DNA from: Candidatus Cloacimonadaceae bacterium
GTDB lineage: Bacteria > Cloacimonadota > Cloacimonadia > Cloacimonadales > Cloacimonadaceae
Length of the DNA stretch: 24,648 bases
Direction: 5' to 3'
Assembly (NCBI GenBank): GCA_046485025.1
Contig: JAWOHU010000111.1
Span: 1 to 24,648, forward strand
Translations under genes and position numbers: made by a program
Notes under the pieces: generated by a model
Told to the model about the DNA's origin: nothing
Seen by the model: only the letters and a program-made list of their open reading frames with translations
Databases searched by the model: none
In this document: piece by piece, positions 3,158 through 17,048 of the stretch
Position numbering within the stretch: the first letter of the stretch is position 1
Layout of the letters: every line of letters starts with the position of its first letter

Positions 3158-3167
3158 GGTAAAACTA

Positions 3168-3629: not shown

Positions 3630-4003
3630 CTTCGGATTTTAACATTAGCGTCATGGAATCTCTGGCAGAAACGCATCTGGTCTGTGACTCCTCATATCCT
3701 CTGATTACCAATACCACTCTGCAGGAAGAAGCTCTGCTCTATAACCTCGATGTATCTGCAGTGTCAGAACTGATAACAAAATTCAATACTCTGACCGGAA
3801 AACAGATTTCATCTGCTTATGACATCAACAATCTGTCAGGAGGACAGAAGGTCATTTTGATGATTCTGCTGGCTCTCCACTCTCCGGCAGAGAATATCGT
3901 TTTTACTAATCTGAAAGTATCGCTGGACAGCATAAGACTAAAGGATGTTATGACTTTAATAGAATCCTGCCAAGCTCAAAAACGAGAAATCCTGGTCAGG
4001 TGA
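3626..4003 (+). CDS. Partial ABC ATPase (helical subdomain, signature and D-loop only); probable ECF A-component fragment
   Basis: LSGGQ at aa 70-74 and SLD D-loop at aa 99-101 with canonical spacing. The Walker B DE position is TN, and there is no Walker A or H-loop. ATGA overlap with the previous gene. Confidence 0.65.
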   Translation: MTSDFNISVMESLAETHLVCDSSYPLITNTTLQEEALLYNLDVSAVSELITKFNTLTGKQISSAYDINNLSGGQKVILMILLALHSPAENIVFTNLKVSLDSIRLKDVMTLIESCQAQKREILVR

Positions 4004-4536
4004 TGATTGTGAATTGGGTTGTTCCTGCAGAGGTTTATCATATCTGGACTGACTTTAGTCTGGAAATAGACAGTGAACTTGTCTTTGCCATAGGCAAGTG
4101 CTACCATCTGACCGGACAAAACGGAGCAGGCAAAAGCAGTTTTATCAAGAAAGTGCTGATACCTCAATTATTAAAACAACAATCCTTACAATTCATTCTC
4201 TATCTGGAACAGCAGGTACAGAGCCAGCTCGATGCAGTCAAAGCCAATGCCGCTCTGCAGAAACCGGCTATGCATATCAACACGATTGATGAGATGTTTG
4301 ACTATCAGTTAAAGCAATTGTCCCGTCAGCTTGCTGCAGAACCCAGACCCGTTATCATCATATTGGATGAGACAATTCTCTCTGACCTCATCAATCAGTG
4401 GCTGAACAAAGTATCAGTGGAACAGGCCTGCCTGATTTATATCTCTCATCAGGATTTTGATTTCCCCAGTTTTAAGGAGGTAATTAAAATCAATTTAAAG
4501 CCAGTCTCAGTCAGCCTTTCAAGGATTGAGGTATGA
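4000..4536 (+). CDS. Short ABC ATPase lacking signature and D-loop; probable ECF A-component
   Basis: Walker A GQNGAGKS (aa 39-46), Q-loop ILYLEQ, Walker B IIILDE (D123-E124) and H-loop IYISH (H150). The signature position reads MFDYQ. GTGA overlap with the previous gene. Confidence 0.75.
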   Translation: MMIVNWVVPAEVYHIWTDFSLEIDSELVFAIGKCYHLTGQNGAGKSSFIKKVLIPQLLKQQSLQFILYLEQQVQSQLDAVKANAALQKPAMHINTIDEMFDYQLKQLSRQLAAEPRPVIIILDETILSDLINQWLNKVSVEQACLIYISHQDFDFPSFKEVIKINLKPVSVSLSRIEV

Positions 4537-5150
4537 ATCCTCTGCTGAAAATCATAACTCTGCTCATCATCCTGACGCTGTTTATCTGGATAGTGTCTTT
4601 CCGGCTGATGGAAAACCTGCCCTGGCAGTTTGCCTTTCTGCTGGTTCTGATTGCCTCGGGAATGCTCAGGTTCGGCCTCAGAAAGTGGTTTAATGAACTG
4701 AAACTGATTCTGCCTTTCATTCTTACCATGCTCATTGTCTATGTCCTGATTGGGCTGATTACTGCAAAAATGCGCTATTGGCTGATTTACGGCTTGCTCA
4801 GAAGTCTGAACTTTATCAACACCATGTTCTTTATACAGCTTACATTATCATACATTTCTATCAATGATATAATCGCTTTGCCCCTGAGTATCGATGCTAA
4901 AAAACACCTGATTCTGGGCAGAGCGCTGTTTAGCCATGCTCTATTGCAAATCGGCAACATCGAGTTTCACCTCAGACTGCTGCACGAATTCCAGAAGCCG
5001 AGACTCAGTTTGAGACTGTGGTTTGCTCTCAGGCTGCAGCAATCCTTTGCCATCATCATTATGCTGCTGCGTGAATCAAAACTGAAGGGCGAATTGATTG
5101 ACAACCGCATCCGGCATTGTTATATTATTAATAACAGAGAAAATCCTTAG
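4533..5150 (+). CDS. ECF transporter transmembrane T-component-like (EcfT/CbiQ-like) protein
   Basis: About four N-terminal TM helices, then amphipathic coupling-helix-like segments with Arg at the usual XRX positions (HLRL, DNRI). Sits between ABC ATPase genes and an S-component. Confidence 0.62.
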   Translation: MNPLLKIITLLIILTLFIWIVSFRLMENLPWQFAFLLVLIASGMLRFGLRKWFNELKLILPFILTMLIVYVLIGLITAKMRYWLIYGLLRSLNFINTMFFIQLTLSYISINDIIALPLSIDAKKHLILGRALFSHALLQIGNIEFHLRLLHEFQKPRLSLRLWFALRLQQSFAIIIMLLRESKLKGELIDNRIRHCYIINNRENP

Positions 5151-5160
5151 GGAGGATGAA

Positions 5161-5619
5161 ATGAAATGGTATTATCTGGTCGGCATCACTATTGCAGTGA
5201 TGGTCATCACCTTATTTATCAGGATACCTTTGCCGAGCAAGGGATACTTCAATTTCGGCGATGTAGCTGTGGTCTTTTCAGGTCTGTTCCTCGGTTTCAA
5301 GGGCGGAGCCATAGCCGGCGGAATTGGTTCTGCACTGGCAGACATTTTGGGCGGATTTCCGCTCTTTGCACCTCTAACTTTAATAGCCAAAGGTCTGGAA
5401 GGTCTGATCAGCGGTTTTGCCAAAGATAAGAAAGGCTTTACCTTCTATCTGTATCCTGCCTTGGGTGTCATCATCATGGTGGCAGTGTATTTTGTGGGAG
5501 AACTGCTGATGCCGCAAATCGGTATCGGCGGCGCTTTGGCAGAACTTCCCGCCAATCTGATTCAAGCCGGTGGCGGTTATGCCGGAGGCATTATCCTCAG
5601 TAAATTAATCAGGCTCTGA
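5161..5619 (+). CDS. ECF transporter substrate-specific S-component
   Basis: RIPLPSKGYFNFGD...GGIGSALADILGG...TLIAKGLEG pattern, typical of ECF S-components; about 152 aa, hydrophobic. Start set at ATG 5161 behind GGAGG (5151-5155) rather than at 5098. Confidence 0.85.
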   Translation: MKWYYLVGITIAVMVITLFIRIPLPSKGYFNFGDVAVVFSGLFLGFKGGAIAGGIGSALADILGGFPLFAPLTLIAKGLEGLISGFAKDKKGFTFYLYPALGVIIMVAVYFVGELLMPQIGIGGALAELPANLIQAGGGYAGGIILSKLIRL

Positions 5620-5629
5620 ACGAAATTTA

Positions 5630-5656
5630 TTGACAACAATATCCCATCCGGATTTT
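5630..5656 (+). promoter_or_regulatory. Putative sigma70-type promoter for hflX
   Basis: Perfect TTGACA at 5630-5635. The best -10-like hexamer is GATTTT after only 15 nt, so it is non-canonical. Confidence 0.4.
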
Positions 5657-5666
5657 GGTTTGAGCA

Positions 5667-5760
5667 GAGGTGAACGAACATGATGATTATGAACTCCTAA
5701 ATCCGTAATAACTGCAACTCGCACACTAAGAACAAATCCATCTGAACAAAGGAGTTTATA
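5667..5760 (+). promoter_or_regulatory. Candidate translational attenuator: uORF MMIMNS* (5680-5700) with an anti-SD for hflX
   Basis: SD GAGGTG at 5667-5672 precedes ATG 5680; stop TAA at 5698-5700. TATGAACTCCT (5688-5698) pairs 11 bp (one G-U) with AGGAGTTTATA (5750-5760), which is the hflX SD plus the A of its start codon. Confidence 0.5.
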
Positions 5761-7088
5761 TGTATCACGACGATTTTGACCAATTTGACGAACTGGAAAT
5801 AGAATCACAATCCGAAGAGTGGGAAGAGCTTGCTCCGTCTGATGATTCCGCTTTCCTGGCGGCTTTGGGCAGGCAGGCAGACAAACCGGAAGAGATAGAA
5901 GCCTCGCTTGCCGAACTGGAACGCCTGGCTTACACAGCCGGAATATCTGTTCTGGGCAAGTATTATCAACGCCGCAATAAACCTGAGAAAGGAACCCTCT
6001 TCGGTAAAGGCTGGCTGCAGGAAACCGCTCAAACCATGAAACAGGCAGGAGCCGGACTGCTAATTGTCAATGAAGAGCTCTCCCCCATGCAGGGACGCAA
6101 TATTGAGCAGGATTTTGACATTAATGTTATCGACCGTACTGAAGTCATCCTCACCATCTTTCACAATCATGCCCGTTCCCGTGAAGCCAGGCTGCAGGTC
6201 AGACTGGCGGAACTGGAATATCAGCTTCCCCGACTGCGCAAGCTTTGGGGTCATTTTGACAAGGAACGCGGCAGTATGCGTGCCGCCGGCGGTTCTGCCT
6301 CACGCGGCATGGGTGAAAAGCAGATTGAAATTGACCGCCGCATCATCAAGCGTGACATTGCCAAAATCAAACGCATCATCAATGAGATTGTAAAGCAAAA
6401 ACTGACTCAGCGCAAACAGCGTGAAAAGGTGAAAAAGATCTGCCTGGTCGGCTACACAAATGCCGGAAAGTCCACTCTGTTCAATGCTCTGACCGACGCC
6501 GGTGTCCTGGTTGAGGACAAACTCTTTGCCACTCTGGATTCCACCACCCGTCAACTCAAAATGGAAATTGGCGGCAATGTGGTCATTTCTGATACCGTCG
6601 GTTTTATTTCCAACCTGCCGCATCATCTGGTGGCTTCGTTTAAAGCTACTCTGATGGAAGTGGAGGATGCGGATTTGCTGCTGCATATGATTGACAGTTC
6701 GGATGACAGGTATGAGGAATACATCCGGCAGGTGGATAACGTCCTGACTGAAATTGAAGCTCAGCACATCCCTCAACTGCTGGTCTTTAATAAAATTGAC
6801 CGCATCGGCGAAAACCTGCTGTCCTTACTGAAAAAGAAATATCCCGAAGCTGTGTTTATCTCAGCGCTGAATCAGACCCATCTGGATGAGCTTAAAAAGC
6901 GGATTGATGCTATTGTCTTCAAAGCTTTTTCCTGTAAACTGGTCATTCCCTATTCCGAAACCAGGCTGGTCTCCAAACTGCACGAAACAGCTCAAATCAT
7001 CTCTGAAGAATATACAGACCAGGGCATTAATCTGGAAGTCATTCTGAACGGCGAGGACAAATACATATTTGAAGAATTCATTGTCTAA
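5760..7088 (+). CDS. hflX: Ribosome-splitting GTPase HflX
   Basis: DRTEVILTIF, LAELEYQLPRL, GEKQIEIDRR, G1 VGYTNAGKST, LFATLD, DTVGF and NKID. SD AGGAG. Confidence 0.97.
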   Translation: MYHDDFDQFDELEIESQSEEWEELAPSDDSAFLAALGRQADKPEEIEASLAELERLAYTAGISVLGKYYQRRNKPEKGTLFGKGWLQETAQTMKQAGAGLLIVNEELSPMQGRNIEQDFDINVIDRTEVILTIFHNHARSREARLQVRLAELEYQLPRLRKLWGHFDKERGSMRAAGGSASRGMGEKQIEIDRRIIKRDIAKIKRIINEIVKQKLTQRKQREKVKKICLVGYTNAGKSTLFNALTDAGVLVEDKLFATLDSTTRQLKMEIGGNVVISDTVGFISNLPHHLVASFKATLMEVEDADLLLHMIDSSDDRYEEYIRQVDNVLTEIEAQHIPQLLVFNKIDRIGENLLSLLKKKYPEAVFISALNQTHLDELKKRIDAIVFKAFSCKLVIPYSETRLVSKLHETAQIISEEYTDQGINLEVILNGEDKYIFEEFIV

Positions 7089-7118
7089 TTAGTAAATAAT
7101 ATGATCTTGTGTTGCCTT

Positions 7119-7245
7119 TTCCGCTCATATTGCAATCAAGTGAAGCACAGGCTGACATCAGCGGGAGATCAGCGGGTTTTATTGCTCAATCACCCGCTGA
7201 AAACAGCTTTTGCTCTGACTATTTGTATCAGGCGGGATACAAGTA
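7119..7245. repeat. Cluster of TCAGCGGG-based direct and inverted repeats with hairpins
   Basis: TCAGCGGG at 7158 and 7169. TCAGCGGGT (7169-7177) pairs with ACCCGCTGA (7192-7200). Second hairpin TTGTATC/GATACAA at 7223-7242. Related TCCGCTCA near 7119. Confidence 0.5.
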
Positions 7246-7294
7246 AAACATCTATTGATAAGAGACAGGAAAAAATAATACAGAAGTTATGGAC

Positions 7295-7328
7295 AAAAAA
7301 AGGCACAGCTAGAATAAGCTGTGCCCTT
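7295..7328 (-). terminator. Intrinsic terminator of the leftward operon
   Basis: 9-bp perfect stem GGCACAGCT/AGCTGTGCC (7302-7310/7317-7325) with a 6-nt loop, followed on the minus strand by 7 U, just after the stop at 7344. Confidence 0.85.
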
Positions 7329-7343
7329 GGTGGTAACCTGATA

Positions 7344-10300
7344 TTATTTCAGGATTATCATTTTACGGGTGAAGTTACCTGAATCTGTTTTCAAACGCAG
7401 TAAGTAAACGCCTCCGGAAACAGGTTTGTTCCGGTTGTCAGTTCCACGCCAGACAAGAGCATGCTGTCCTGCCGATAGTTTTTCATTGACTAAAGTACGC
7501 ACTAATTGTCCTTTCAGATTATATACGCTCAGATTGGCATGTGAACCTGATTTCAGACTGAACCGGATGGTTGTTTCCGGATTGAAGGGATTGGGATAAT
7601 TCTGCTGCAGATATGTATAATTAATGCCCAGATCATCTTCTGCGCCGCTAACCTGAACTACTACAGAGTCACTGGGCTCTGAGTTTCCCATATCGTATAC
7701 GGCAAGCAGATAATAGGTATAGACATCAGTAGCAGAAATGGGTTCACTGAAATATTGGTCATATTCACTTAACTGGCTGACCATTTCGCCGTTACGAAAA
7801 ACTTTATAAGTCTCCAGTTCGGGATAAAGTCCTCTTATAACCGGCGGTTGATTCTGGCTTTCTCCGAGTTTAAGTCTCATTTTCCAGTTATGGTTGATGG
7901 AAAAGCCGGTAGCAAGATCACTCAAGACATCATTTATAATGATTTGATTCGCTCCTGCAGTAGGTGTGTCGGCATCATCAAGCATTAATCCGCCCGTTGT
8001 TTCTATTTCAAAACGGTATGAATCAGTAGGTGAATTTATCGCAAAACCCCAGATCTCAATTTCATTCCACTGCCCCGGGACAGGATCACTTAGCAGATGC
8101 TCATACAACTGAAATTCGTCATCAGGATAGCACTGATAAACTTTCAGGTTATACGGCAGATCGGAAGCAGGAACAAAAGCAACGCTGATGATATCCATAT
8201 TAATACAACTGATCAATTCGCCAGGTGAAAACTTAACACTGGCTTTGTAAGAATCCTGAAACGTAAACGGTACAGAAGTACCTTGGGAATCTTTGCCAAA
8301 GATCTTTTTTCCGTCATCCGGGCGGTCCCAGGTAAGTTGCACCATGCCGTTTTCCACTTCCGCAGCAAGGGCTGTAACCTGATGCAGAACGGGCGGGCCA
8401 GCTACCACTTCATATACCGGAGTCCAGGTCAGACCGTCTTCATACACAGCAGCAACACCATAAGAATATATCTCACCAAATATGACACCTGTGTCGATAA
8501 ATTGAACCTGATTAATCAGATTCGCTACAACTACAGTTTCTTCGCCATAATAACGCTCAATCTTATAGCCCAAAAGGACTCTGTCATCAAGGGACGGCGC
8601 TTCCCAATTGATCTCTACGCCGGCTACACAGCCAATCAGAGTTACGTTCTGGGGTGGAAGGAGCAGACGGTAATAATGAACTTCACTTTCCCAAATACTC
8701 CCATCCTGATATGAGGCAATCAATTGATATCCCACTTCCTCGTCATTACAGACAAGAGAGTCAAGGTAATTGGTTGAGTAGAGAATTGGAGTGGCGGGGA
8801 TGTCATTTATAGAATGTATGATTACTCCATTCCTTTTCAGATTAATCTGGGATAATCCACCATTAATATGATAAGCTTGTATCAGGATGCTGACATAATC
8901 ATCACCATTGTCATCACTTTGGAAGCTTATATAAGGCAGGTTGAGAGGAGAAACCATAACCCGGGCAGCATTGGAGATATTACTTTCTCCCTCGGAATAC
9001 ACTGCTATGACATAGTATAAATGTTCTCCCCAGGCAGGATTTACATCTTCATAAAAGGTAAAAGTCGTGGGTGTTGAATTCAGAAGCTGATGATCTTTGT
9101 AAAGGTTGTAACCAATGAAGCTCCTGTCGTCCCAGGGTTCAAATTCCTGGCCCAGAACCCTGATCATTGCATCCTGCCAGGGAAGATTCTGCCAAAAAGT
9201 ATCACCGTCTGACTTATATACAGTATGACTGGTGCTGACATCTGTAACTCCGATGCTGAACATGCTATCCATAACATATTTTACTCCGATATAAAACGGA
9301 GTTTGGGGTTGAATTGTCAGCCAGAGAGGGAATTGTACCCACTGAGGATATCCCGGAACATCGGGGATGAATTCAAATATCTTAGGTTCTGAGAACAGCG
9401 GTTGATTCAAATCAGGATGACCATCAGTTTCATAAAATCCCACAATTTCAACCTGAGATGATTCCATCGATTTCATCGCCAGTTTAATAGCGCCAATGCT
9501 CAATTCCCAATCATTAACATATCTTGTAACCAGATATTCATATTCGTTAACCATAAAAGGATAATAGAATTCATCAGCAGGTGGACTGTCATGAAATAGC
9601 TGAAGCGCACTATCACCTGAATTTTCATACACCCGATCCCAGCTGATGTTTGCCAGCGGACCATCCATAGTATTATAAACATTTGCAGTCAGACGGTAAG
9701 GTTCCATCAAAGGCTGTTCAGGTACAAGGTAGAAATTATGCATATAACTTTCACCGCTGACAAGGTTAGTTACATATGATGTGCTGTCATCGTATCCGAA
9801 AGCCTGGATGCTTAGGTTGACTAATGAATCAGGTTGAACAGGCAGAGAATAATTACCATTGATGTCAGAACGGGTATAACAGTCCCCGTCAGATATCAAA
9901 GCCCCGGTTACAGGATGCATATCAAAATCCCATATTTCTCCGGTTAACAGAGCAGGAGTTTGATAGTTCTGGTCACGCAGCACGATATCGTCAAAACGCC
10001 AGAACATAAGGTTGGAACTATTGTTACCATATACGCGTAACCTGAACTTAATGGTTCCTGAGCTGATGTAATCAACTAAGTTGTGGCTGAACTCCTGTAG
10101 AGGCATATTTATATTGTGCACACCGGTATTATGCTGTTGCAGAGTTAACCAGTTACTGCCATCCGTACTGATTTCGACTGCCATATGCAAAGTAGTATCA
10201 GCATTCATGGCAGACCCCAATGTTTTATAATCAAGGTAGAGGGCAGTGCAGGATGTTATGTCAAAGCTGCGTGAAACAAGACTTGAATTGAAATCGTTTA

Positions 10301-10484
10301 TTTCAGGCAATCCTGTAAACCTGAGATGAAAGCCATATACATCCATAATTTTCCAGTTCTCACATACCGGCTCACAGGTCCAGCTATTGGTATATAATCT
10401 GCCTGTTTCAAAACCTTCATGCATAAAAACCGCATGCAGGAGAGTGACCATAGTCAATACAGCTATCAGCAGATACTTTTTCAT
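7344..10484 (-). CDS. Large secreted multi-domain protein (MAM/adhesin-like N-domain, carboxypeptidase-regulatory-like domain, FN3-like modules, C-terminal FlgD-Ig/T9SS-type sorting domain)
   Basis: Signal peptide MKKYLLIAVLTMVTLLHA. FN3-like GYNLYK...VIAVY and YKVFRNG...LAVY modules. C-terminus LQQNYPNPFNPETTIRF...YNLKGQLVRTL...WRG...GVYLLRL. SD AAGGAG. Confidence 0.85.
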   Translation of the reverse strand: MKKYLLIAVLTMVTLLHAVFMHEGFETGRLYTNSWTCEPVCENWKIMDVYGFHLRFTGLPEINDFNSSLVSRSFDITSCTALYLDYKTLGSAMNADTTLHMAVEISTDGSNWLTLQQHNTGVHNINMPLQEFSHNLVDYISSGTIKFRLRVYGNNSSNLMFWRFDDIVLRDQNYQTPALLTGEIWDFDMHPVTGALISDGDCYTRSDINGNYSLPVQPDSLVNLSIQAFGYDDSTSYVTNLVSGESYMHNFYLVPEQPLMEPYRLTANVYNTMDGPLANISWDRVYENSGDSALQLFHDSPPADEFYYPFMVNEYEYLVTRYVNDWELSIGAIKLAMKSMESSQVEIVGFYETDGHPDLNQPLFSEPKIFEFIPDVPGYPQWVQFPLWLTIQPQTPFYIGVKYVMDSMFSIGVTDVSTSHTVYKSDGDTFWQNLPWQDAMIRVLGQEFEPWDDRSFIGYNLYKDHQLLNSTPTTFTFYEDVNPAWGEHLYYVIAVYSEGESNISNAARVMVSPLNLPYISFQSDDNGDDYVSILIQAYHINGGLSQINLKRNGVIIHSINDIPATPILYSTNYLDSLVCNDEEVGYQLIASYQDGSIWESEVHYYRLLLPPQNVTLIGCVAGVEINWEAPSLDDRVLLGYKIERYYGEETVVVANLINQVQFIDTGVIFGEIYSYGVAAVYEDGLTWTPVYEVVAGPPVLHQVTALAAEVENGMVQLTWDRPDDGKKIFGKDSQGTSVPFTFQDSYKASVKFSPGELISCINMDIISVAFVPASDLPYNLKVYQCYPDDEFQLYEHLLSDPVPGQWNEIEIWGFAINSPTDSYRFEIETTGGLMLDDADTPTAGANQIIINDVLSDLATGFSINHNWKMRLKLGESQNQPPVIRGLYPELETYKVFRNGEMVSQLSEYDQYFSEPISATDVYTYYLLAVYDMGNSEPSDSVVVQVSGAEDDLGINYTYLQQNYPNPFNPETTIRFSLKSGSHANLSVYNLKGQLVRTLVNEKLSAGQHALVWRGTDNRNKPVSGGVYLLRLKTDSGNFTRKMIILK

Positions 10485-10493
10485 TTTTACTCC

Positions 10494-12941
10494 TTACTTT
10501 ATCAATGTCATCTTATGTGTTAAGTTATAATTGCTGCCTTTAATCTTCATAAAGTAGATTCCGGTGCTGCAGGATGCACCTTTATCATTCTTGCCATCCC
10601 AAATCAGGTAGTTCATTCCTGCTTTCGAAGCGATGGCAGGATATTTTTTGACAACCTGACCTTTGGTGTTGTAAATGACAATTTCGACTGTCTCAGTTTT
10701 AGGTAGATCATAACTAATATTGGTGTTTGCATAAAAGGGATTAGGGTAGTTATCAACTTTAACGCTAAAACTTGGCAAGGGATCATTTTCAACTGAAGTT
10801 GATGAATAATCAAGACAGTAAATGCCATTATTGAAAGGATTCATCCACAGTTTGCCATTTCTGTCCGACTCAACTTGTGTTATATGACTGGTGGGAAGGG
10901 GTGTGTTGCTGCGGTTGTAAACTGCATAGTTCATTCCGTCATAATAAATCAATCCCTGATCAAGGGTTGCCAGCCAGAGACAATCATTTTCATCAACCGT
11001 GAGATCGGTTACGATTATACCTTCCAAATCAGCCACAGAATTCCACGTACTTCCAAAATAGCTGGCAATTCCATTATCAGTGGATGCCCAAATCCTTCCT
11101 GCCGCATCTCGCACTAGAGATGATGTTTCCCAACCAGGAAGACCTGAATTCGTCGGGTTGAAGTATTGCCATTGATAGGAAGCCGAATTGGAAATATCCA
11201 CTTTGTAAACACCAACAACAGTCGACACCCAGACTATGGGTGCGTCGTGCTGTGCCAGAACATCTGTAATTGTATTGGAATATAATCCTGTTACCGTTGT
11301 CATGTTATACTGGGTCCAGGCGATGTTATCATAAACAGCTATCCCGTCTGTTCTGGTACCAGCCCACAAGTGACCGTTGAAATCTTCCTGCGCATTGCTG
11401 GCATAGATAAAAGGATACCCGGAAGTTTCAGTATCATATATCTGCCAAGCTGTATCTGTTTTTCGGCAGATTCCTCCATACATATCGAATAAATCAGCTG
11501 CATTGGAATTAGCATCACCGGTAGCAATAAGTACAGCGCCCTGCCTGTCAAAGCTGACATCATTCACAACATAATTCTGATAATCATTGTAGTTATAATA
11601 TTCCCAGTTATTATCATCAAATCCCATAAGTGAGGTTTGAAGGGGTATATCACCCCAAACGTACCAGCCTGTTCCAAACCAGGTTTTGCCATTATTATCA
11701 GATTTAATATCCCAAATGCTGTTAAGCCCCTTGACCGGAGTATCCGGAAAGATGTCCGGCAGGATAAACTGATTATTTCTGTAACATATCATTGTGTCAT
11801 CATATAGGGCAATCCACATCGTGTTTGTGCAATCCATAAACAGATTCTGAAGCATGATGTCAGTTAAATACCCATCAGGATCAGCAAGAGCAGCCCAGGT
11901 GTCATTCTGGAATTTAAGTATTCCACCAGTGATTGTGTTGATGTATAATTCATCCTGATTGCCGATAGCAACATCCCAATACATATTAGTCAGATCTGTT
12001 GTATATTTTGTGAATGTTGTTCCGTTATATTTGAAAAGCCCGTTATCCACACTGCCCGAAAGACAAAACCAGATATTTCCCTGGCTGTCTTCGACAACAT
12101 TCTTAATATACCAGTCTTTAAGAGGTTCATTCGGATCATCTGCAATCTGTGTATTAAACACATCCCATCCGTTTGCTGTAATATGAAGCAAACCACCACC
12201 TACGTATGGATCGGGATCGACATCGCCGGAAAATGCTATCCATAACGAACCGTCATTGGCTCTGGTCATGGACATGACTGTGTTGGAAGGAAGACTTGAA
12301 TTGGTTTTGGTATAATACTGCCAGCTCTGGTCAGCAGGATTATAACAGGATAGACCGCCATCTGAAAATCCATTCATGGCATAGCCAATCCACAGTTTTC
12401 CTGAACTGTCAAATTCAAGACAGGTAATGTTATTGGAATGGAAAGGAGAATCAGTATAATTCATGGTTGACCAAGTCCCATCACTATGCAGCACACTGAT
12501 CCCTCCACAAAGCTGACTGTCAAAAGCAAATGCAAGGTGCGAAAACCAGTAATTTCCTGATGTATCTCTGGCCATATCAGTTATAAAATTCGAATTCAAT
12601 CCGCTGTTGGCTGTAGTGAGTAACTCGGAATACAGGAGCTGAGGATTGTACCTGATGACTCCAAATGGACTGGCAAACCATTGATAGGTATCGTCTTCAA
12701 AAAAAGATTGATAATTATAGGGATTTGTGTATGCAGTCCAACTGAAATCCGGTCTGTTTGAACTTGCCATCAAATCTTTCTTAACTGCGACTTGTTTACC
12801 GTGTTCATGATATGGACGATACACGGCAGTTGGTATTTGTTTCGAATCTGTAATAGCATACAAACTGATACAAAATGCTAAAATCAGCATAATCATTATA
12901 AAGTGACGGAATTTCCCATGCTTAAATACTAAGCGAGACAT
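10494..12941 (-). CDS. Secreted beta-propeller protein with two-component-regulator-propeller (Reg_prop)-like repeats and a C-terminal FlgD-Ig/T9SS-type domain
   Basis: Many D-x-x-G-x-x-W repeats (DTSGNYW, DSSGKLW, DSQGNIW, DNNGKTW, DFNGHLW, DAAGRIW, DRNGKLW) and NSGL/NSSLP motifs. C-terminus NYPNPF...YNTKGQVV...WDG...GIYFMKI. SD GGAGG. Confidence 0.85.
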   Translation of the reverse strand: MSRLVFKHGKFRHFIMIMLILAFCISLYAITDSKQIPTAVYRPYHEHGKQVAVKKDLMASSNRPDFSWTAYTNPYNYQSFFEDDTYQWFASPFGVIRYNPQLLYSELLTTANSGLNSNFITDMARDTSGNYWFSHLAFAFDSQLCGGISVLHSDGTWSTMNYTDSPFHSNNITCLEFDSSGKLWIGYAMNGFSDGGLSCYNPADQSWQYYTKTNSSLPSNTVMSMTRANDGSLWIAFSGDVDPDPYVGGGLLHITANGWDVFNTQIADDPNEPLKDWYIKNVVEDSQGNIWFCLSGSVDNGLFKYNGTTFTKYTTDLTNMYWDVAIGNQDELYINTITGGILKFQNDTWAALADPDGYLTDIMLQNLFMDCTNTMWIALYDDTMICYRNNQFILPDIFPDTPVKGLNSIWDIKSDNNGKTWFGTGWYVWGDIPLQTSLMGFDDNNWEYYNYNDYQNYVVNDVSFDRQGAVLIATGDANSNAADLFDMYGGICRKTDTAWQIYDTETSGYPFIYASNAQEDFNGHLWAGTRTDGIAVYDNIAWTQYNMTTVTGLYSNTITDVLAQHDAPIVWVSTVVGVYKVDISNSASYQWQYFNPTNSGLPGWETSSLVRDAAGRIWASTDNGIASYFGSTWNSVADLEGIIVTDLTVDENDCLWLATLDQGLIYYDGMNYAVYNRSNTPLPTSHITQVESDRNGKLWMNPFNNGIYCLDYSSTSVENDPLPSFSVKVDNYPNPFYANTNISYDLPKTETVEIVIYNTKGQVVKKYPAIASKAGMNYLIWDGKNDKGASCSTGIYFMKIKGSNYNLTHKMTLIK

Positions 12942-13302
12942 TTTTTCCTCCTTGGTTTTGTTGTAGTATTGATATTATATCTTCCAGCATAAATGGTTTT
13001 TCTTTGAATTGGATATTTTTCAATGATAATAAGTTCTCACTCAAATATGGATTTGGAAGATCACGATAAACCAGAATTCTCATATCGTATCCATCTTTCA
13101 TTGTCCCTAATAAATATTTCCTGTTGCTTTCAGGATCAATATCAAAGTCTATGATTACAGCTTCAATTGCGTCATGATTGTTTTTTATCAGGTTATCAGC
13201 TTCAATGATCGTCGTGAGAAAAATTGATTCGACGTCCATCCGTCTCAGGGCTCTGTGCAGAGACTGTTTTAACAACAAGTCTTGAACTACAATAATAATC
13301 AT
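12922..13302 (-). CDS. Stand-alone, atypical receiver (CheY-like) protein
   Basis: 126 aa with beta1 IIIVVQD, beta3 AVIID (D52) and K102-P103 (EKPF). The first acidic residue is Q and the beta4 Thr/Ser is absent. SD AGGAG. Confidence 0.7.
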   Translation of the reverse strand: MIIIVVQDLLLKQSLHRALRRMDVESIFLTTIIEADNLIKNNHDAIEAVIIDFDIDPESNRKYLLGTMKDGYDMRILVYRDLPNPYLSENLLSLKNIQFKEKPFMLEDIISILQQNQGGKNVSLSI

Positions 13303-13451
13303 TTTTTAAACTCCTTTGCTTTTCATATAAAACAAAAGTTGTTCTCAGAAAATCATATTACGCCGATACTTCCTATCTTTATGATAGAAATACATTTAGC
13401 CTATGAGATACACAAAATTCATTATATTCATTATGACTTACTGTATTATTG

Positions 13452-13462
13452 TGGACAGTCCA
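13452..13462. promoter_or_regulatory. Perfect palindrome TGGAC-A-GTCCA in the divergent intergenic region; candidate operator/UAS
   Basis: Seen directly; a half-site TGGACA recurs near 13508. Function is unproven. Confidence 0.3.
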
Positions 13463-13558
13463 TTATGAACTATGGTGAGCAATAACGTGGTTTTTTTAAG
13501 AAATCTCTGGACAAAAGATGGATTGCTGTTTTTGAGACTTTTATATCTATAATAACGG

Positions 13559-15214
13559 ATGATAGAAATGCAGCAAAGAAAAGTAAAAGAAAACAGGAAT
13601 GTTATCAAACGGGCTGAGACATTACTAAAAAATGCTTCTGAAGCTTGGAAAAGCGGTAATTACAGCGAAGGCAAGACATATGCGGAGGCAGCCTTAGAGC
13701 TCGGAATTATCGAAAGAAATTTAACGATTCAGGCTCATGCATCACATATTTTGGGGACAATCTATGCTTATCTTGATGCCTATGACCTGGCTTTGGAAAA
13801 TTATCTGAAAGCCCAACGTCTGAACGATAAATTGGGTGAAAAAACCAGGCAAGCTGAAGCCTTGAACAGCATGGGCGATATCTACATCAAGCTATCCGAT
13901 ATTCCTAAAGCTACTGAGTGTTTTGAAAAAGCCCATATGTTGTATCCGGAATATGAGCGGTGCATTAATAATCTTGGCTACCTGAAAATGTTAAAAGGTG
14001 AGTTGGATGAAGCAATCCGCTTTTACAGGATGGCGTGCAAGATTTCTGCATCAAACGGCAGTCTGCGCAGCGAGATAATCTCTCATATCAATATATCTGA
14101 TGCTTTATGTAAACTGGGTAAACCAGAGCTTGCCCTCGAAGAACTTAAGGCTGCAGATATTCTTATAAATAAAGGAAAAATTGAAACTCCCAATGAAATC
14201 AGGTGCGCTCTTCTTCTCAACCTGTCGTATGTAAAACAAATGCTCGACGATGATGTGAATGCCTTGTCTCATCTGAACGATGCATTAGATCTTTCTCAAA
14301 CTGCTCAGCTAAAAGATTACCAACAAAAATCATTTCATATGCTGGCAAGCTATAACGCGGCAAAAGAAAACTGGAAACAGGCTTATTTCAATCTGATGGA
14401 ATTCACAAATTTAAATACGCAGATACTTAGCAGCAATATGATCCAGAAATTAAGCAATCTCCAGAATTTCTATGCCAAGGAAACCCGCGATCTGATCACC
14501 ATGAATCTCACAGAAAAATCAGCCCGGCTGGCTACACTTGGGATTTTATCCACCAGCATAACCCATGAGTTGAACCAACCTCTCTCAGCAATTCGTATCT
14601 CCTCGGAAAGTATACTGTACTGGATTAAAAAGGAATCTATCGTAATGCCGATGAATTTTAACGTTGAATTGAATCATATCCTCGAAGGGATAAAACGCAT
14701 AGAAAATGTTGTTCGAATTATCCGGCAGTTCTGGAATTCCGGCAGAGATTCAGTTCTAGTCCGGTGTGATCTTGGCCTCACGATAGACAAATGCATCAGT
14801 CTGGTATCCCGCAGGATGTTTGCACACGGAATCACCCTTGAATATGATAATCCAGCTGAGAATTTCTATCTGGAAGTATCTGAGATTCACCTGCAGCAGA
14901 TTATTATAAATCTATTAAACCATTGTATTAATCTGCTGGAAAACTCTCCTGCCAAACATAAAATCCTGTTAATCAAAACGGATAATAACAAAGGCAGAAA
15001 CCTACTTACAGTTATGCAGGATGGTTCACAGATTACTGCTGAAATGCTCAGCCGGTTATTTAATCCTTTTAGTTCTGAAGATGTTAACAATGACAATGAA
15101 ATGGACATTGCAATTGTAAAACATCTTTGTGATAATTACCAGTACAAGCTGAATCCCATACAGCAAAAAAAACAGTTTTGGGGGTTTGTTATTGATTTTG
15201 GAGCAAACAGATGA
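13559..15214 (+). CDS. Cytoplasmic TPR-repeat histidine-kinase-like protein with a degenerate ATP-binding domain (pseudokinase or phosphotransferase)
   Basis: N-terminal TPR-like helices (LGTIYAYLDAYDLALENYLKA; NNLGYL) and no TM helix. H-box THELNQPL (H336) is intact. N-box is NLLNHC, G1 is MQDGSQ, F-box is LFNPF and G2 is DNEMDIAI. Confidence 0.85.
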   Translation: MIEMQQRKVKENRNVIKRAETLLKNASEAWKSGNYSEGKTYAEAALELGIIERNLTIQAHASHILGTIYAYLDAYDLALENYLKAQRLNDKLGEKTRQAEALNSMGDIYIKLSDIPKATECFEKAHMLYPEYERCINNLGYLKMLKGELDEAIRFYRMACKISASNGSLRSEIISHINISDALCKLGKPELALEELKAADILINKGKIETPNEIRCALLLNLSYVKQMLDDDVNALSHLNDALDLSQTAQLKDYQQKSFHMLASYNAAKENWKQAYFNLMEFTNLNTQILSSNMIQKLSNLQNFYAKETRDLITMNLTEKSARLATLGILSTSITHELNQPLSAIRISSESILYWIKKESIVMPMNFNVELNHILEGIKRIENVVRIIRQFWNSGRDSVLVRCDLGLTIDKCISLVSRRMFAHGITLEYDNPAENFYLEVSEIHLQQIIINLLNHCINLLENSPAKHKILLIKTDNNKGRNLLTVMQDGSQITAEMLSRLFNPFSSEDVNNDNEMDIAIVKHLCDNYQYKLNPIQQKKQFWGFVIDFGANR

Positions 15215-16656
15215 AAGTGCTGATAATTGACAGTGATCTCTTATTTGCGCAATCAATAGGTAATTTCCTTTCCGTCCAGTTGGGGCATAGCACCCGTCAT
15301 TGCACCAGAATCGAAGAAGGTCTTAATATCTTTGATGAATATGTGCCTGACCTTGTCATAACTGAGTTAATGATGCCCGGGATGGATGGTTTTGACCTGA
15401 TAGATAAACTGCGTTCTCCTGATAGTAAGTATGATGCAGGTATTTTAATTCTCTGCGGAGAGGGTGATAATGAAGCCCAGATCAAAGCTTTGGAAGCAGG
15501 TGCTGATGATGTTTTGTGTAAACCAATTCCACTTGAACTGCTTGCTATCAGAATTAAGAGACTGGAAGAAATTCTTTCGGCAAGACATAAACTGGTAAAA
15601 CTCAGCACTGATTTCGAATCTGAATTGCAGTTGAGGCTGCAAGACCTAAAAACCGCTCTTGGGAATCTGCAGAAGGAATACCAGAGCGAGTTGGGATTCA
15701 GCGGTTTAGGAGTATACAGCGATACGATGAGGCAGATTACTCAGCTCTGTCTGCGAATTCATAAAGATCGCGATTTACCGGTATTGATAACAGGTGAAAC
15801 CGGAACAGGTAAAGAACTGATTGCCAGGCTGATACATTATGGAGATGAAAACAGTAATCTGCCTTTTATTTCTCTTAATTGTTCTGCCATTCCTGCCACT
15901 CTTTTTGAAAGTGAACTTTTCGGTTATGAACGTGGAGCCTTTACAGGAAGCAACCGCGAAGGTAAAATTGGCAAATTGGAAATGGCTAATGGCGGAACAC
16001 TTTTTCTGGATGAGATTGGAGACCTGCCTTTGGACCTGCAACCCAAGCTGTTGCGTGTTATCCAGGAACAGGAAATGTACCGTGTAGGTGGAACCAAGAA
16101 AATACCCTTAGACATACGTTTTCTCTTTGCTACTCATCAGGATCTGCATAAATCCATCCTGGATAAAACTTTCCGTCAGGACCTTTTCTACCGCATTTCG
16201 ACAATTTATATAAATATCCCGCCCCTGCGTGAACGGAAGGAGGAGATCATTCCCCTGTCCCAGTTGTTCCTCAAACAAATCTCTGTTAAAAAACATATGC
16301 CTTTGAAATTTCTCAAAGAAGAAACAGCACAGTTAATTAAGGAATATGACTGGCCCGGTAATGTTAGGGAACTGCTTGGTGCCATGGAAAGGGCTTATCT
16401 GATTACCGATGAAGTTGAGATTAGCCCTGATAACTTCAGTTTCTTGTTGCCCAATTCTCCCCTGAATCTAAATTTCTCCTCACGTCGAAAACTCTTCCTG
16501 GAATTACCTGAAGCAGGATTAACTCTCTCCGATTTTCAGACCAGGATTATACAAAAAGTTCTGGAACTGCATAATAACAATAAATCTCAAAGTGCCCGAT
16601 ATCTGGGAATATCATTGAACAGACTAAAACGGCTGCTGCAAAGCAAACAAATCTGA
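15211..16656 (+). CDS. NtrC-family sigma54-dependent enhancer-binding protein with an aspartate-less receiver
   Basis: Receiver LVITELMMPGMDG (E52), Walker A GETGTGKE, GAFTGS, Walker B FLDEI, RQDLFYR, WPGNVREL and a Fis-type HTH. ATGA overlap with the kinase-like gene. Confidence 0.93.
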   Translation: MKVLIIDSDLLFAQSIGNFLSVQLGHSTRHCTRIEEGLNIFDEYVPDLVITELMMPGMDGFDLIDKLRSPDSKYDAGILILCGEGDNEAQIKALEAGADDVLCKPIPLELLAIRIKRLEEILSARHKLVKLSTDFESELQLRLQDLKTALGNLQKEYQSELGFSGLGVYSDTMRQITQLCLRIHKDRDLPVLITGETGTGKELIARLIHYGDENSNLPFISLNCSAIPATLFESELFGYERGAFTGSNREGKIGKLEMANGGTLFLDEIGDLPLDLQPKLLRVIQEQEMYRVGGTKKIPLDIRFLFATHQDLHKSILDKTFRQDLFYRISTIYINIPPLRERKEEIIPLSQLFLKQISVKKHMPLKFLKEETAQLIKEYDWPGNVRELLGAMERAYLITDEVEISPDNFSFLLPNSPLNLNFSSRRKLFLELPEAGLTLSDFQTRIIQKVLELHNNNKSQSARYLGISLNRLKRLLQSKQI

Positions 16657-16701
16657 TTGAATGGCTGATAAGTAAACACATTTCATTGTTTCTCCCTGTC
16701 A

Positions 16702-16840: not shown

Positions 16841-16916
16841 GCATCTTTAGCTCAGCTGGTAGAGCAACTGACTCTTAATCAGTGGGTCCGGGGTTCGAGT
16901 CCCCGAAGATGTACCA
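16841..16916 (+). tRNA. tRNA-Lys (anticodon CTT)
   Basis: Cloverleaf: acceptor GCATCTT/AAGATGT, D-arm GCTC/GAGC, anticodon arm ACTGA-CTCTTAA-TCAGT, T-arm CGGGG-TTCGAGT-CCCCG, and an encoded ACCA end; 76 nt. Confidence 0.98.
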
Positions 16917-16967: not shown

Positions 16968-17013
16968 AGCGGTAATTTGCTCTTTGCTCCGCTTTGTAAA
17001 TGTGCTAAAGTGC
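16968..17013 (+). ncRNA. SAM-II/SAM-V-like riboswitch aptamer (H-type pseudoknot) upstream of metK
   Basis: P1 AGCGG/CCGCT (16968-72/16989-93); loop 1 TAATTT; P2 GC(T)CTTTGC (16979-87) with GC(T)AAAG(T)GC (17004-13), leaving U17006 unpaired; loop 3 TTGTAAATGT. This matches the remembered SAM-II pattern UGAUUU...UUGC...AAAU...GCUAAA, and the downstream gene is SAM synthetase. Confidence 0.75.
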
Positions 17014-17022
17014 TTTTTTCAG

Positions 17023-17048
17023 AGCCGGCTTTAGCGTCGGCTTTTTTT
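17023..17048 (+). terminator. Intrinsic terminator in the metK leader (riboswitch expression platform)
   Basis: Stem AGCCGGC/GTCGGCT, loop TTTAGC, then a T7 tract, ending 22 nt before the metK start. Confidence 0.75.

What the first reader, a model, noticed from the sequence alone, without database searches (positions are those of the whole stretch)
7344..16656. Self-contained five-gene module: a non-canonical sigma54 signalling cassette facing two secreted proteins
The leftward operon (receiver, propeller protein, 1046-aa secreted protein; tight spacing, strong terminator) and the rightward pair (TPR pseudokinase, D-to-E activator) share a 256-bp divergent spacer. All three signalling proteins have lost canonical phosphochemistry in different ways, while the activator's AAA+ motor and HTH are intact. 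This suggests a phosphorylation-independent, protein-interaction or phosphorelay switch controlling secreted-protein expression. The regulatory link is inferred from proximity only.
Basis: inference. Interest (0 to 1): 0.78.

Follow-up and report, generated by a model that had tools for sequence, protein, structure and literature searches.

The report
Phosphate-dead sigma-54 switch with surface-protein operon
A mobile five-gene island in an uncultured Cloacimonadota bacterium pairs a sigma-54 activator, a kinase-like partner and a small receiver protein with two exported binding proteins, and in this lineage the kinase and activator have jointly lost the residues needed to pass phosphate while staying under selection.

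Summary

They form a ~9.6-kb island (about 7100-16700) between hflX and tRNA-Lys/metK. Two congeners have an empty site there.

The same five genes recur in 9 of 98 family genomes, in different flanks. Looser, chemically canonical versions occur in other Cloacimonadota families.

In the close clade:
- The TPR kinase keeps its His, but the N, G1 and G2 ATP-binding motifs are gone.
- The activator has Glu at the acceptor site in 7 of 8 loci.
- The AAA+ motor and HTH are intact.
- The "dead" domains are still under purifying selection (dN/dS about 0.1 or less).

The small protein folds as a receiver. It keeps its acceptor Asp and Lys, so "all three lost phosphochemistry" is overstated.

Orthologous spacers carry a -24/-12 promoter and paired enhancer-like sites upstream of the cargo operon, so the regulatory link no longer rests on proximity alone. 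The window keeps the two sites, but its -24 GG is missing.

My best reading is a protein-contact switch derived from a two-component system. A residual relay through the small receiver is not excluded.

This scan already noted an orthologous cassette on another genome (e1-3017027).

The parts
7100..16700 (.). Approximate extent of the accessory island between hflX and tRNA-Lys/metK
   Evidence: blastn to congeners G007 and G002 aligns window 5073-6770 and 16707/16799-18880 with only about 550 bp between them there. GC is 0.35-0.44 inside against 0.45-0.50 in the flanks.
7299..7328 (-). Intrinsic terminator ending the leftward operon
   Evidence: 12-pair stem, 6 GC pairs, T-run.
7344..10484 (-). 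P0001, 1046 aa: signal peptide, jelly-roll binding module, CarboxypepD_reg-like and Ig/fn3-like domains, T9SS C-terminal sorting domain
   Evidence: TIGR04183 41 bits. N-terminal hydrophobic segment. Residues 20-175 model at pLDDT 94.5 and match CBM61, MAM and gingipain cleaved-adhesin domains at TM 0.66-0.72. Orthologues are 37-49% identical.
10494..12941 (-). P0002, 815 aa: signal peptide, double Reg_prop beta-propeller, T9SS sorting domain
   Evidence: Reg_prop 76 bits, with repeats in both halves; TIGR04183 38.5 bits. Orthologues are 43-55% identical.
12922..13302 (-). P0003, 126 aa: divergent single-domain receiver, first gene of the cargo operon
   Evidence: AF2 pLDDT 83.4, (beta-alpha)5 fold; Foldseek matches PmrA, PhoP and Spo0F receivers at TM about 0.7. 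D8, D52, K102 and P103 are invariant. No Pfam or NCBIfam hit.
13311..13319 (-). Conserved RBS block GCAAAGGAG
   Evidence: Same block in five of the eight spacers (window, G010, G110, G031, G099).
13331..13346 (-). Position of the family's -24/-12 sigma-54 promoter; here GAGAAC-N5-TTGTT, lacking the -24 GG
   Evidence: Orthologues have TGGCAC, TGGTAC, TGGCTC or TGGAAC, then N5, then TTGG/A at the same distance from the RBS. No other GG-N10-GC site in the spacer.
13427..13437 (-). Candidate enhancer (UAS) site 2, GTCATAATGAA, at -135 from the P0003 start
   Evidence: Same position as the TCC-N5-GGA palindromes at -134/-135 in G110, G031 and G099. Shares the core TCATAATG with site 1, 32 bp away.
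13459..13469 (-). Candidate enhancer (UAS) site 1, TTCATAATGGA, at -167
   Evidence: Same position as palindromes at -165/-167 in G010, G110, G031 and G099. Similar TTCATAATGAA sites precede the G027 promoter.
13499..13513 (-). Conserved box TGTCCAGnnAnnTCT near the kinase gene start; function unknown
   Evidence: Present in the window, G079, G010, G110 and G099, and partly in G031 (by inspection). The spacing does not fit a sigma-54 promoter.
13559..15214 (+). P0004, 551 aa: cytoplasmic TPR - DHp (His336) - degenerate CA domain; pseudo-histidine kinase
   Evidence: Pfam TPR, HisKA, HATPase_c. No TM segment. N, G1 and G2 lost in 8 of 8 close orthologues while the H-box is nearly invariant. Identity is 0.81 for DHp and 0.42 for CA; dN/dS is 0.01 and 0.09.
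15211..16656 (+). P0005, 481 aa: sigma-54 activator with pseudo-receiver (Glu52), about 50-aa helical linker, AAA+ domain, HTH_8
   Evidence: PF00158 212 bits, REC 70.5 bits, HTH_8 29.4 bits. Glu at the acceptor in 7 of 8 close orthologues. Walker A/B, GAFTGS and the FRxDLFYR block (R-finger region) are intact.
16841..16916 (+). tRNA-Lys(CTT), right flank of the island (not part of the module)
   Evidence: ARAGORN and Rfam.

Best explanation
SHOWN. This is a mobile five-gene module of Cloacimonadota. It descends from ordinary cassettes in which a cytoplasmic TPR histidine kinase, a sigma-54 activator and a single-domain receiver accompany operons for T9SS-exported surface proteins that carry sigma-54 promoters.

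On the stem of one clade, which includes this window:
- the kinase lost its ATP site but kept the His;
- the activator's receiver lost its acidic pocket and Thr;
- in the crown group the acceptor Asp became Glu.
All genes remain intact and under purifying selection.

INFERRED.
1. The activator no longer takes phosphate. Glu52 holds its receiver in an on-like state, as D54E does in NtrC-type regulators.
2. Control has moved to protein contacts. The DHp helices of P0004, its most conserved part, bind the pseudo-receiver of P0005 and gate assembly of the AAA+ ring. The TPR domain is the input.
3. P0003 is made from the first gene of the target operon. It docks on the same DHp surface around His336 and so feeds back on the switch.
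4. The output is an operon for two non-enzymatic binding proteins, a double propeller and a jelly-roll/Ig protein, displayed through T9SS.

In this genome the target promoter has lost its -24 GG, so the output step may be weak or rewired.
For: Unit of inheritance:
- Empty site in congeners.
- Same five genes in G079, G110, G010 and G031, with contig-cut copies in G048, G056 and G111, in unrelated flanks.
- 9 of 98 family genomes carry it.
- REC-propeller-P0001-like operon next to a TPR-kinase/activator pair in divergent, co-directional (G040) and convergent (L048) layouts.

Descent from canonical systems:
- All 12 other activators tabulated keep DD-D-T-K, and so do the two tandem loci G039 and G023. 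11 of the 12 paired kinases keep H, N, G1 and G2.
- The degenerate clade is monophyletic at 100/100 and nests among them. G031, which keeps the Asp, branches first.

Loss of chemistry.

Continued constraint:
- For G048/G056, dN/dS is 0.01 for DHp, 0.09 for CA and 0.02 for AAA+; for the receiver pN is 0.10 with saturated dS.
- DHp identity is 0.81.

Regulatory link: -24/-12 element plus paired palindromes in orthologous spacers, and perfect promoters in G040 and G027.

Sigma-54 use: 6 strong activators in this genome, and rpoN in 24 of 24 high-quality relatives.

P0003:
- It is a receiver fold.
- Docking test: P0004(310-551) x2 with P0003 scored 0.37 against a best control of 0.02, a 'weak support' verdict. 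That mark was reached by 51 of 78 solved complexes and 2 of 108 mismatches. At 0.60 or under it was reached by only 5 of those 78 and by all 4 mismatches that passed.
- The interface is the canonical one: kinase residues 335-355 including His336, against receiver helix 1 and the beta5-alpha5 loop.

Literature:
- D54E is phosphomimetic in an NtrC-like regulator (PMC6211767).
- Glu is the commonest residue at the acceptor site of pseudo-receivers (PMC12632262).
Against: - No binding, ATPase or expression data exist.
- The complex score is weak and may reflect memory of solved kinase-regulator complexes.
- The P0004-P0005 contact was not tested.
- The nearly invariant His336, with an intact HExxN motif, and the retained Asp52, Asp8 and Lys102 of P0003 are more than a pure docking role needs. 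They hint at surviving phosphochemistry.
- Helix-1 similarity between the two receivers of a cassette, expected if both use one DHp surface, is clear in canonical cassettes (0.34 against 0.20) but not in this clade (0.19 against 0.14).
- The window's own promoter lacks the -24 GG.
- rpoN was not found in this 78%-complete genome.
Confidence: 0.45

Rival explanations
1. Residual phosphorelay. P0004 acts as a ChpT/Spo0B-like histidine phosphotransferase or as a phosphatase. Its His336 would be phosphorylated in trans by a kinase encoded elsewhere, or by back-transfer from P0003~P made from acetyl phosphate. The phosphorylation state of P0003 and P0004 would then decide whether P0004 holds or releases the non-phosphorylatable activator, in the way DivL reads DivK~P.
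For: - The H-box is nearly invariant, with an HE[IL]N motif, and DHp dN/dS is 0.01.
- P0003 keeps D52, D8 and K102 in all relatives, and Ser at the Thr position in most. The G048 copy even has a full DD pair.
- In G039 and G023, tandem paralogues have degenerated in complementary ways: one keeps the His and lacks the ATP motifs, the other has His to Tyr and keeps the ATP motifs. So trans-phosphorylation of an ATP-blind TPR kinase is plausible in this family.
- Kinase-like phosphotransferases without ATP binding are known (ChpT, PMC3433190; PhyT, PMC5898713).
Against: - The cassette holds no second kinase.
- The terminal regulator cannot accept phosphate: Glu52 in 7 of 8, and in G031 the acidic pair is NN.
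- In this window P0003 has Arg at the Thr/Ser position and Gln at the first acidic position.
- The no-ATP paralogues of G039 and G023 are a separate lineage.
Confidence: 0.27
2. Constitutive activator with relic partners. Glu52 makes P0005 permanently active, so the cargo operon is simply on wherever the island is present. P0004 and P0003 would be leftovers with no role in its control, or with unrelated roles.
For: - D-to-E phosphomimics activate NtrC-type regulators (PMC6211767).
- The CA domain and receiver are the least conserved parts.
- In G099 all five genes are fragmented, so the cassette is dispensable.
Against: - All three signalling genes are kept full-length and co-inherited in every other copy.
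- dN/dS is about 0.1 or less in every domain that could be measured, including the 'dead' CA.
- The kinase and activator genes overlap, which suggests translational coupling.
- The DHp is more conserved than the AAA+ motor.
Confidence: 0.13
3. In this particular genome the link is broken. The cargo operon has lost its sigma-54 promoter and is silent or read from another promoter, so the window's signalling pair no longer controls the two secreted proteins.
For: - GAGAAC replaces TGGCAC at the conserved position, and no other GG-N10-GC site lies in the spacer.
- The two enhancer sites deviate from the family's TCC-N5-GGA consensus.
- rpoN was not found in the assembly.
Against: - All five ORFs are intact.
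- Both enhancer sites are kept at exactly -167 and -135 with a shared 8-mer.
- The genome has six activators and is only 78% complete.
- The spacer could not be checked against reads.
Confidence: 0.15

Closest known systems
NtrB/NtrC-class two-component systems with sigma-54 activators (AtoS/AtoC, ZraS/ZraR, NtrC1)
   Same: A HisKA-type kinase gene sits directly upstream of a REC-AAA+-HTH_8 activator. Upstream palindromic sites and a -24/-12 promoter are present at the target in orthologues.
   Different: The kinase lacks the N, G1 and G2 ATP motifs. The activator has Glu at the acceptor, so the defining His-to-Asp transfer cannot occur. The sensor is a cytoplasmic TPR array.
Engineered phosphomimics NtrC D54E, LuxO D47E, NmpR D54E (PMC6211767, PMC4878744)
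   Same: Glu at the acceptor position of an NtrC-type receiver.
   Different: Here the Glu is natural and fixed in a clade. It comes with loss of the second acidic residue and the Thr, and with a matching dead kinase.
Bacterial pseudo-receivers / aspartate-less receivers, e.g. FleQ, RitR, HP1043 (PMC12632262, PMC4395418)
   Same: A receiver fold without phosphorylation chemistry. Glu is the commonest replacement.
   Different: 18 of the 20 characterised cases are orphans (PMC12632262). This one is translationally coupled to a cognate pseudo-kinase and comes with a second receiver.
DivL-DivK of Caulobacter (PMC4211667)
   Same: A kinase-like protein reused as a binding partner or sensor of a single-domain receiver.
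   Different: DivL lost the His (Tyr) and keeps its ATP domain. P0004 is the reverse: His kept, ATP site lost.
ChpT / Spo0B / PhyT histidine phosphotransferases (PMC3433190, PMC5898713)
   Same: A kinase-like DHp + CA-like fold with the His conserved and no ATP binding.
   Different: Those shuttle phosphate to a phosphorylatable regulator. Here the adjacent regulator cannot accept it. P0004 also has a long TPR input domain.
NifL-NifA (own knowledge, not tested here)
   Same: A kinase-like protein controls a sigma-54 activator by protein contact, without phosphotransfer.
   Different: NifL binds nucleotide and has PAS sensors. NifA has a GAF domain, not a receiver. There is no sequence relationship beyond the domain classes.
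PEP-CTERM PrsK/PrsR/PrsT system (PMC1569441)
   Same: A dedicated kinase/sigma-54 activator pair, with a TPR protein, accompanies genes for proteins carrying a C-terminal sorting signal.
   Different: The sorting system is different (exosortase, not T9SS). P0005 scores 306 bits against the TIGR02915 cut-off of 502.6, so it is not a member.

Membership tests
Sigma-54 bacterial enhancer-binding protein (NtrC family) | AAA+ sigma-54 interaction domain with Walker A/B, GAFTGA loop and R-finger | tested here: met
   PF00158 212 bits. GETGTGKE, LFLDEIGD, GAFTGS and FRQDLFYR are present and conserved.
Sigma-54 bacterial enhancer-binding protein (NtrC family) | C-terminal Fis-type HTH | tested here: met
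   HTH_8 29.4 bits.
Sigma-54 bacterial enhancer-binding protein (NtrC family) | Sigma-54 (rpoN) in the genome | tested here: inconclusive
   Not found in the 78%-complete assembly. Found in 24 of 24 high-quality relatives. Six activators in the own genome.
Sigma-54 bacterial enhancer-binding protein (NtrC family) | A -24/-12 promoter at the target | tested here: not met
   The window has GAGAAC-N5-TTGTT at the conserved position. The feature is met in 7 of 8 orthologous spacers and in G040 and G027.
Phosphorylatable response-regulator receiver (activator N-terminus) | DD, acceptor Asp, Thr/Ser and Lys quintet | tested here: not met
   DSD, Glu52, Cys82; Lys kept.
HisKA-type sensor histidine kinase | H-box with phospho-accepting His | tested here: met
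   SITHELNQPL, His336; conserved in all close orthologues.
HisKA-type sensor histidine kinase | N, G1 and G2 boxes of the ATP-binding CA domain | tested here: not met
   The N-box Asn aligns to His, G1 reads QDGSQ, and G2 reads EMDIA, in alignments to HK853 and to canonical relatives.
HisKA-type sensor histidine kinase | ATP-dependent autophosphorylation | not testable with these tools
   Needs biochemistry.
CheY-like single-domain receiver (P0003) | (beta-alpha)5 fold | tested here: met
   pLDDT 83.4, five strand-helix units. Matches PmrA, PhoP and Spo0F at TM about 0.7.
CheY-like single-domain receiver (P0003) | Catalytic quintet | tested here: inconclusive
   D52, D8 and K102 are kept. The first acidic residue is Gln7 and the Thr/Ser position is Arg80 here; it is Ser in the orthologues. 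No PF00072 hit at E 0.01.
T9SS type A cargo | C-terminal sorting domain plus N-terminal signal peptide, and T9SS machinery in the genome | tested here: met
   TIGR04183 at 41.4 and 38.5 bits. Hydrophobic N-termini. PorU 460.7 bits over the cut-off of 420, SprA_N, and at least 45 CTD ORFs.
ChpT/Spo0B-type histidine phosphotransferase | A phosphorylatable receiver both upstream and downstream of the His | tested here: inconclusive
   P0003 could serve as one. P0005 cannot. No donor kinase lies in the island.
PEP-CTERM-box regulator PrsR | Score over the TIGR02915 cut-off | tested here: not met
   306.5 bits against 502.6.

The most novel reading that the evidence does not exclude
A whole cognate two-component system (kinase, regulator and auxiliary receiver) has been converted in nature into a phosphate-independent partner switch. 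The pseudo-kinase's DHp/His surface would be kept as the regulatory interface for a Glu-locked sigma-54 activator. Living relatives preserve the steps: canonical cassettes, the G031 intermediate with the Asp kept, and the D-to-E crown group. A parallel lineage has split the kinase into complementary halves.
Probability: 0.35. Interest if true: 0.75.

Novelty: new variant of a known kind. Interest (0 to 1): 0.6.

Why it matters
How bacterial pseudo-receivers are switched on and off is an open question (PMC12632262). Nearly all studied cases are orphans, which leaves no partner to test. This cassette offers three things:
- a pseudo-receiver activator with a dedicated, co-inherited pseudo-kinase and a second receiver;
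- a defined target promoter and enhancer in the orthologues;
- chemically canonical relatives to serve as built-in controls.

All the proteins are soluble and could be expressed heterologously. The cassette also indicates that in Cloacimonadota sigma-54 cassettes of this type are the usual neighbours, and probably regulators, of T9SS surface-protein operons. That fits the proposal that sigma-54 governs the cell exterior (PMC3162934).

Tried and rejected
- Word-indexed search with P0003 found only itself. Relatives came only from synteny.
- A strict sigma-54 pattern search found no site in the spacer.
- A genome-wide scan for -24/-12 sites was too noisy, and its inside-ORF filter was flawed, so it is not used. 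It showed only about 77 CTD ORFs and one other cargo gene (C207, 774 aa) with a site 41 nt upstream.
- No RNA runs hold the locus. The one DNA run with fragments does not cover 13087-13865, so the unusual -24 sequence could not be verified.
- The helix-1 similarity test for a shared docking surface was inconclusive in this clade.
- Pfam scans of proteins that share P0001's N-terminal module gave no enzymatic context.
- dS is saturated for all but the closest pairs, so dN/dS rests mainly on G048/G056 and G010/G111.
- I considered and rejected a sigma-54 promoter for the kinase operon at the conserved TGTCCAG box. The GG-to-GC spacing is one base short in the copies inspected.
- I considered and rejected tRNA-targeted integration. 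The island lies 5' of the tRNA and encodes no integrase.
- The terminator at 17021-17044 lies beyond the tRNA, in the metK leader, so I do not assign it to the activator operon.

Full report
**Observation**

- The five ORFs lie exactly where stated.
- The leftward genes are tightly packed. P0003 and P0002 overlap by 20 nt, P0002 and P0001 are 9 nt apart, and the operon ends at a strong terminator at 7328-7299.
- The rightward genes overlap by 4 nt. The spacer is 256 bp.
- Pfam and NCBIfam give these domains:
  - P0001: T9SS sorting domain.
  - P0002: Reg_prop repeats in both halves plus the T9SS sorting domain.
  - P0003: nothing.
  - P0004: TPR, HisKA and a weak HATPase_c.
  - P0005: REC, Sigma54_activat (212 bits), AAA lid and HTH_8.
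- Hydropathy shows signal-like N-termini only in P0001 and P0002. There is no membrane segment in the three signalling proteins.

**Organism and setting**

- Relatives' record titles name Candidatus Cloacimonadota. Full-length TPR-kinase relatives were found only there.
- The assembly is 78% complete, in 288 contigs.
- rpoN was not found in it. It is present in 24 of 24 high-quality relatives, and the genome has six strong sigma-54 activators. I take the gap as an assembly effect.
- T9SS is present: PorU over the cut-off, SprA, and at least 45 CTD-bearing ORFs.

**An island inherited as a unit**

- The flanks are hflX (5760-7088) on one side and tRNA-Lys(CTT), metK, kdsA and kdsC on the other.
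- In congeners G007 and G002 the two flanks are about 550 bp apart, so about 7100-16700 is an insertion. Its GC content is lower than that of the flanks.
- G001 carries a different insert at the same site, with a CTD protein and a C10 peptidase with a CTD. This site is therefore a hotspot for cargo islands.
- Among 98 family genomes, 9 hold a close orthologue of P0004 (48-57% identity), scattered over five genera.
- G079, G110, G010 and G031 have all five genes in the same divergent layout. G048, G056 and G111 are cut by contig ends. In G099 every gene is fragmented.
- The flanks differ between genera.
- In 5.8 billion proteins the P0004 family has only 13 clusters.

**Descent from canonical cassettes**

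- In other Cloacimonadota families a TPR kinase and an activator are always adjacent. CTD cargo genes lie beside them in nearly every locus with enough flank.
- The REC-propeller-P0001-like operon recurs next to such a pair co-directionally (G040) and convergently (L048). Linkage therefore survives rearrangement.
- Motif table:
  - All 12 activators outside the close clade keep DD-D-T-K, as do those of the two tandem loci G039 and G023.
  - 11 of the 12 paired kinases keep H, N, G1 and G2. The twelfth (G009) has Ser at the His and a second kinase core beside it.
  - Their small receivers are canonical.
- In the close clade, all eight loci checked show the following:
  - The kinase N-box Asn is His, Phe or Tyr. 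G1 reads QNGxx or QDGSQ. G2 has lost its glycines.
  - The H-box GITHELNQPLSAIRIS is almost invariant.
  - The activator has DSD, Cys/Ser/Leu at the Thr position, and Glu at the acceptor in seven. G031 keeps the Asp but has NN for the acidic pair.
- Alignment to HK853 confirms the Asn-to-His and DxGxG-to-QDGSQ assignments.
- On the kinase tree the clade is monophyletic (100/100), on a long stem, nested among canonical kinases. G031 branches first. The Asp-to-Glu change therefore probably followed loss of the ATP site.

**A second, independent loss**

In G039 and G023 two tandem TPR kinases precede a canonical activator. One keeps the His and has lost N, G1 and G2. The other has Tyr at the His and keeps the ATP motifs. 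This looks like a kinase split into complementary halves. It is a separate lineage on the tree.

**Still under selection**

- Within the clade, DHp identity is 0.81, TPR 0.52 and CA 0.42. For the activator, AAA+ is 0.80 and REC 0.51.
- For the closest pair (G048/G056, dS about 1), dN/dS is 0.01 for DHp, 0.09 for CA, 0.10 for TPR and 0.02 for AAA+. For the receiver, pN is 0.10 with saturated dS.
- The dead domains are relaxed but not neutral.

**The small protein**

- P0003 models as a (beta-alpha)5 receiver (pLDDT 83.4) and matches PmrA, PhoP and Spo0F receivers.
- D8, D52, K102 and P103 are invariant across all small receivers.
- Most orthologues have Ser at the Thr position, and the G048 copy has a full DD pair. 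In this window the Thr position is Arg80 and the first acidic residue is Gln7.
- P0003 is thus the least degenerate of the three proteins.
- In a controlled docking test with the P0004 core dimer it scored 0.37 against a best control of 0.02. The verdict was weak support. That mark was reached by 51 of 78 solved complexes and 2 of 108 mismatches. At 0.60 or under it was reached by only 5 of those 78 and by all 4 mismatches that passed.
- The interface is the textbook one: kinase residues 335-355 including His336, against receiver helix 1 and the beta5-alpha5 loop. This may be memory of solved complexes.

**Regulatory DNA**

- On the strand of the cargo operon, the orthologous spacers, which cannot otherwise be aligned, share three features:
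  - an RBS block;
  - 26 nt upstream of it, TGGCAC, TGGTAC, TGGCTC or TGGAAC, then N5, then TTGG/A;
  - TCC-N5-GGA palindromes at about -167 and -135.
- G040 has TGGCAC-N5-TTGCA before its receiver gene. G027 has TGGCAC-N5-TTGCC, with TTCATnATGAA palindromes, before its large cargo gene.
- The window keeps two sites at exactly -167 and -135: TTCATAATGGA and GTCATAATGAA. They share an 8-mer and lie 32 bp apart.
- At the promoter position, however, the window reads GAGAAC-N5-TTGTT. No alternative site exists in the spacer.
- Reads could not confirm this stretch, and there is no RNA data.

**Cargo**

- The first module of P0001 is a confident jelly-roll (pLDDT 94.5). It resembles CBM61, MAM domains and the cleaved-adhesin domains of the gingipain Kgp.
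- The rest of P0001 gives weak CarboxypepD_reg and fn3 signals. The family is rare.
- P0002 is a double Reg_prop propeller.
- Neither protein shows a catalytic domain. Both look like surface binding proteins.

**Mechanism**

Shown:
- a co-inherited module derived from canonical systems;
- a kinase without an ATP site;
- an activator that cannot be phosphorylated on Asp;
- an intact motor and HTH;
- a sigma-54 promoter and enhancer at the cargo operon in the clade.

Inferred:
- Glu52 gives an on-like receiver. D54E is sufficient for activity in an NtrC-like regulator (PMC6211767).
- The P0004 DHp gates the activator by contact, with the TPR array as the input.
- P0003, as the first product of the target operon, feeds back by occupying the same surface.

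The main rival is a residual relay through His336 and Asp52. Their conservation and the split kinases of G039 and G023 favour it. The absence of any kinase in the island and the dead acceptor in the activator count against it.

**Comparison and novelty**

- Pseudo-receivers, Glu at the acceptor site, pseudo-kinases and kinase-like phosphotransferases are each known (PMC12632262, PMC4395418, PMC4211667, PMC3433190).
- What differs here is that both partners of one operon-encoded pair have degenerated together, in the reverse pattern to DivL. An extra receiver and a defined sigma-54 target are attached, and canonical and intermediate relatives are available.
- 18 of the 20 characterised atypical regulators are orphans (PMC12632262).
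- I class this as a new variant of a known kind.
- An orthologous cassette was already described by this scan on another genome (e1-3017027), with a concordant reading.

Noticed in passing
L123 (G039:C3) 8850-12178 and L124 (G023:C25) 8617-11916: Tandem TPR-kinase paralogues with complementary defects. One keeps the His but lacks N, G1 and G2. The other has His to Tyr but keeps the ATP motifs. A canonical activator follows. This is a candidate split kinase that works in trans.
   Followed up: partly
L038 (G009:C26) 8836-13118: A TPR kinase with Ser at the His position (GILSDIGNPL) but intact ATP motifs. A canonical activator and an extra 384-aa kinase core follow it.
   Followed up: no
L037 (G099:C144), whole 9743-bp contig: All five cassette genes are broken into two to three ORFs each. 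Either the cassette is decaying as a whole or the assembly is error-prone (67% complete, coverage 2.6 in the contig name).
   Followed up: no
L042 (G001:C2) 2320-6683: At the same hflX/tRNA-Lys site a congener carries a different 4.8-kb insert. It holds a CTD protein and a C10 (streptopain-like) peptidase with an inhibitor prodomain and a CTD. This site is a hotspot for T9SS cargo islands.
   Followed up: partly
window 16968-17048: The terminator-like hairpin at 17021-17044(+) lies after tRNA-Lys and just before metK. The Rfam gathering scan found only the tRNA in the window.
   Followed up: partly
window 13499-13513 and orthologous spacers: A conserved box TGTCCAGnnAnnTCT lies about 45-60 nt upstream of the kinase gene start in most copies. 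Its spacing does not fit sigma-54. It could be an operator or the promoter of the kinase-activator operon.
   Followed up: no
L022 (G028:C21) 7486-8856: In one canonical cassette a 456-aa Schlafen/AlbA_2 + HATPase_c_4 + winged-helix gene sits between the kinase and activator genes.
   Followed up: no
window 7101-7382 (+): A 93-aa ORF overlaps the 3' end of P0001 and the terminator. It has no family hit and is probably not a gene.
   Followed up: no
G000 whole assembly: rpoN was not detected although six sigma-54 activators are present. This is most likely an assembly gap (78% complete).
   Followed up: partly
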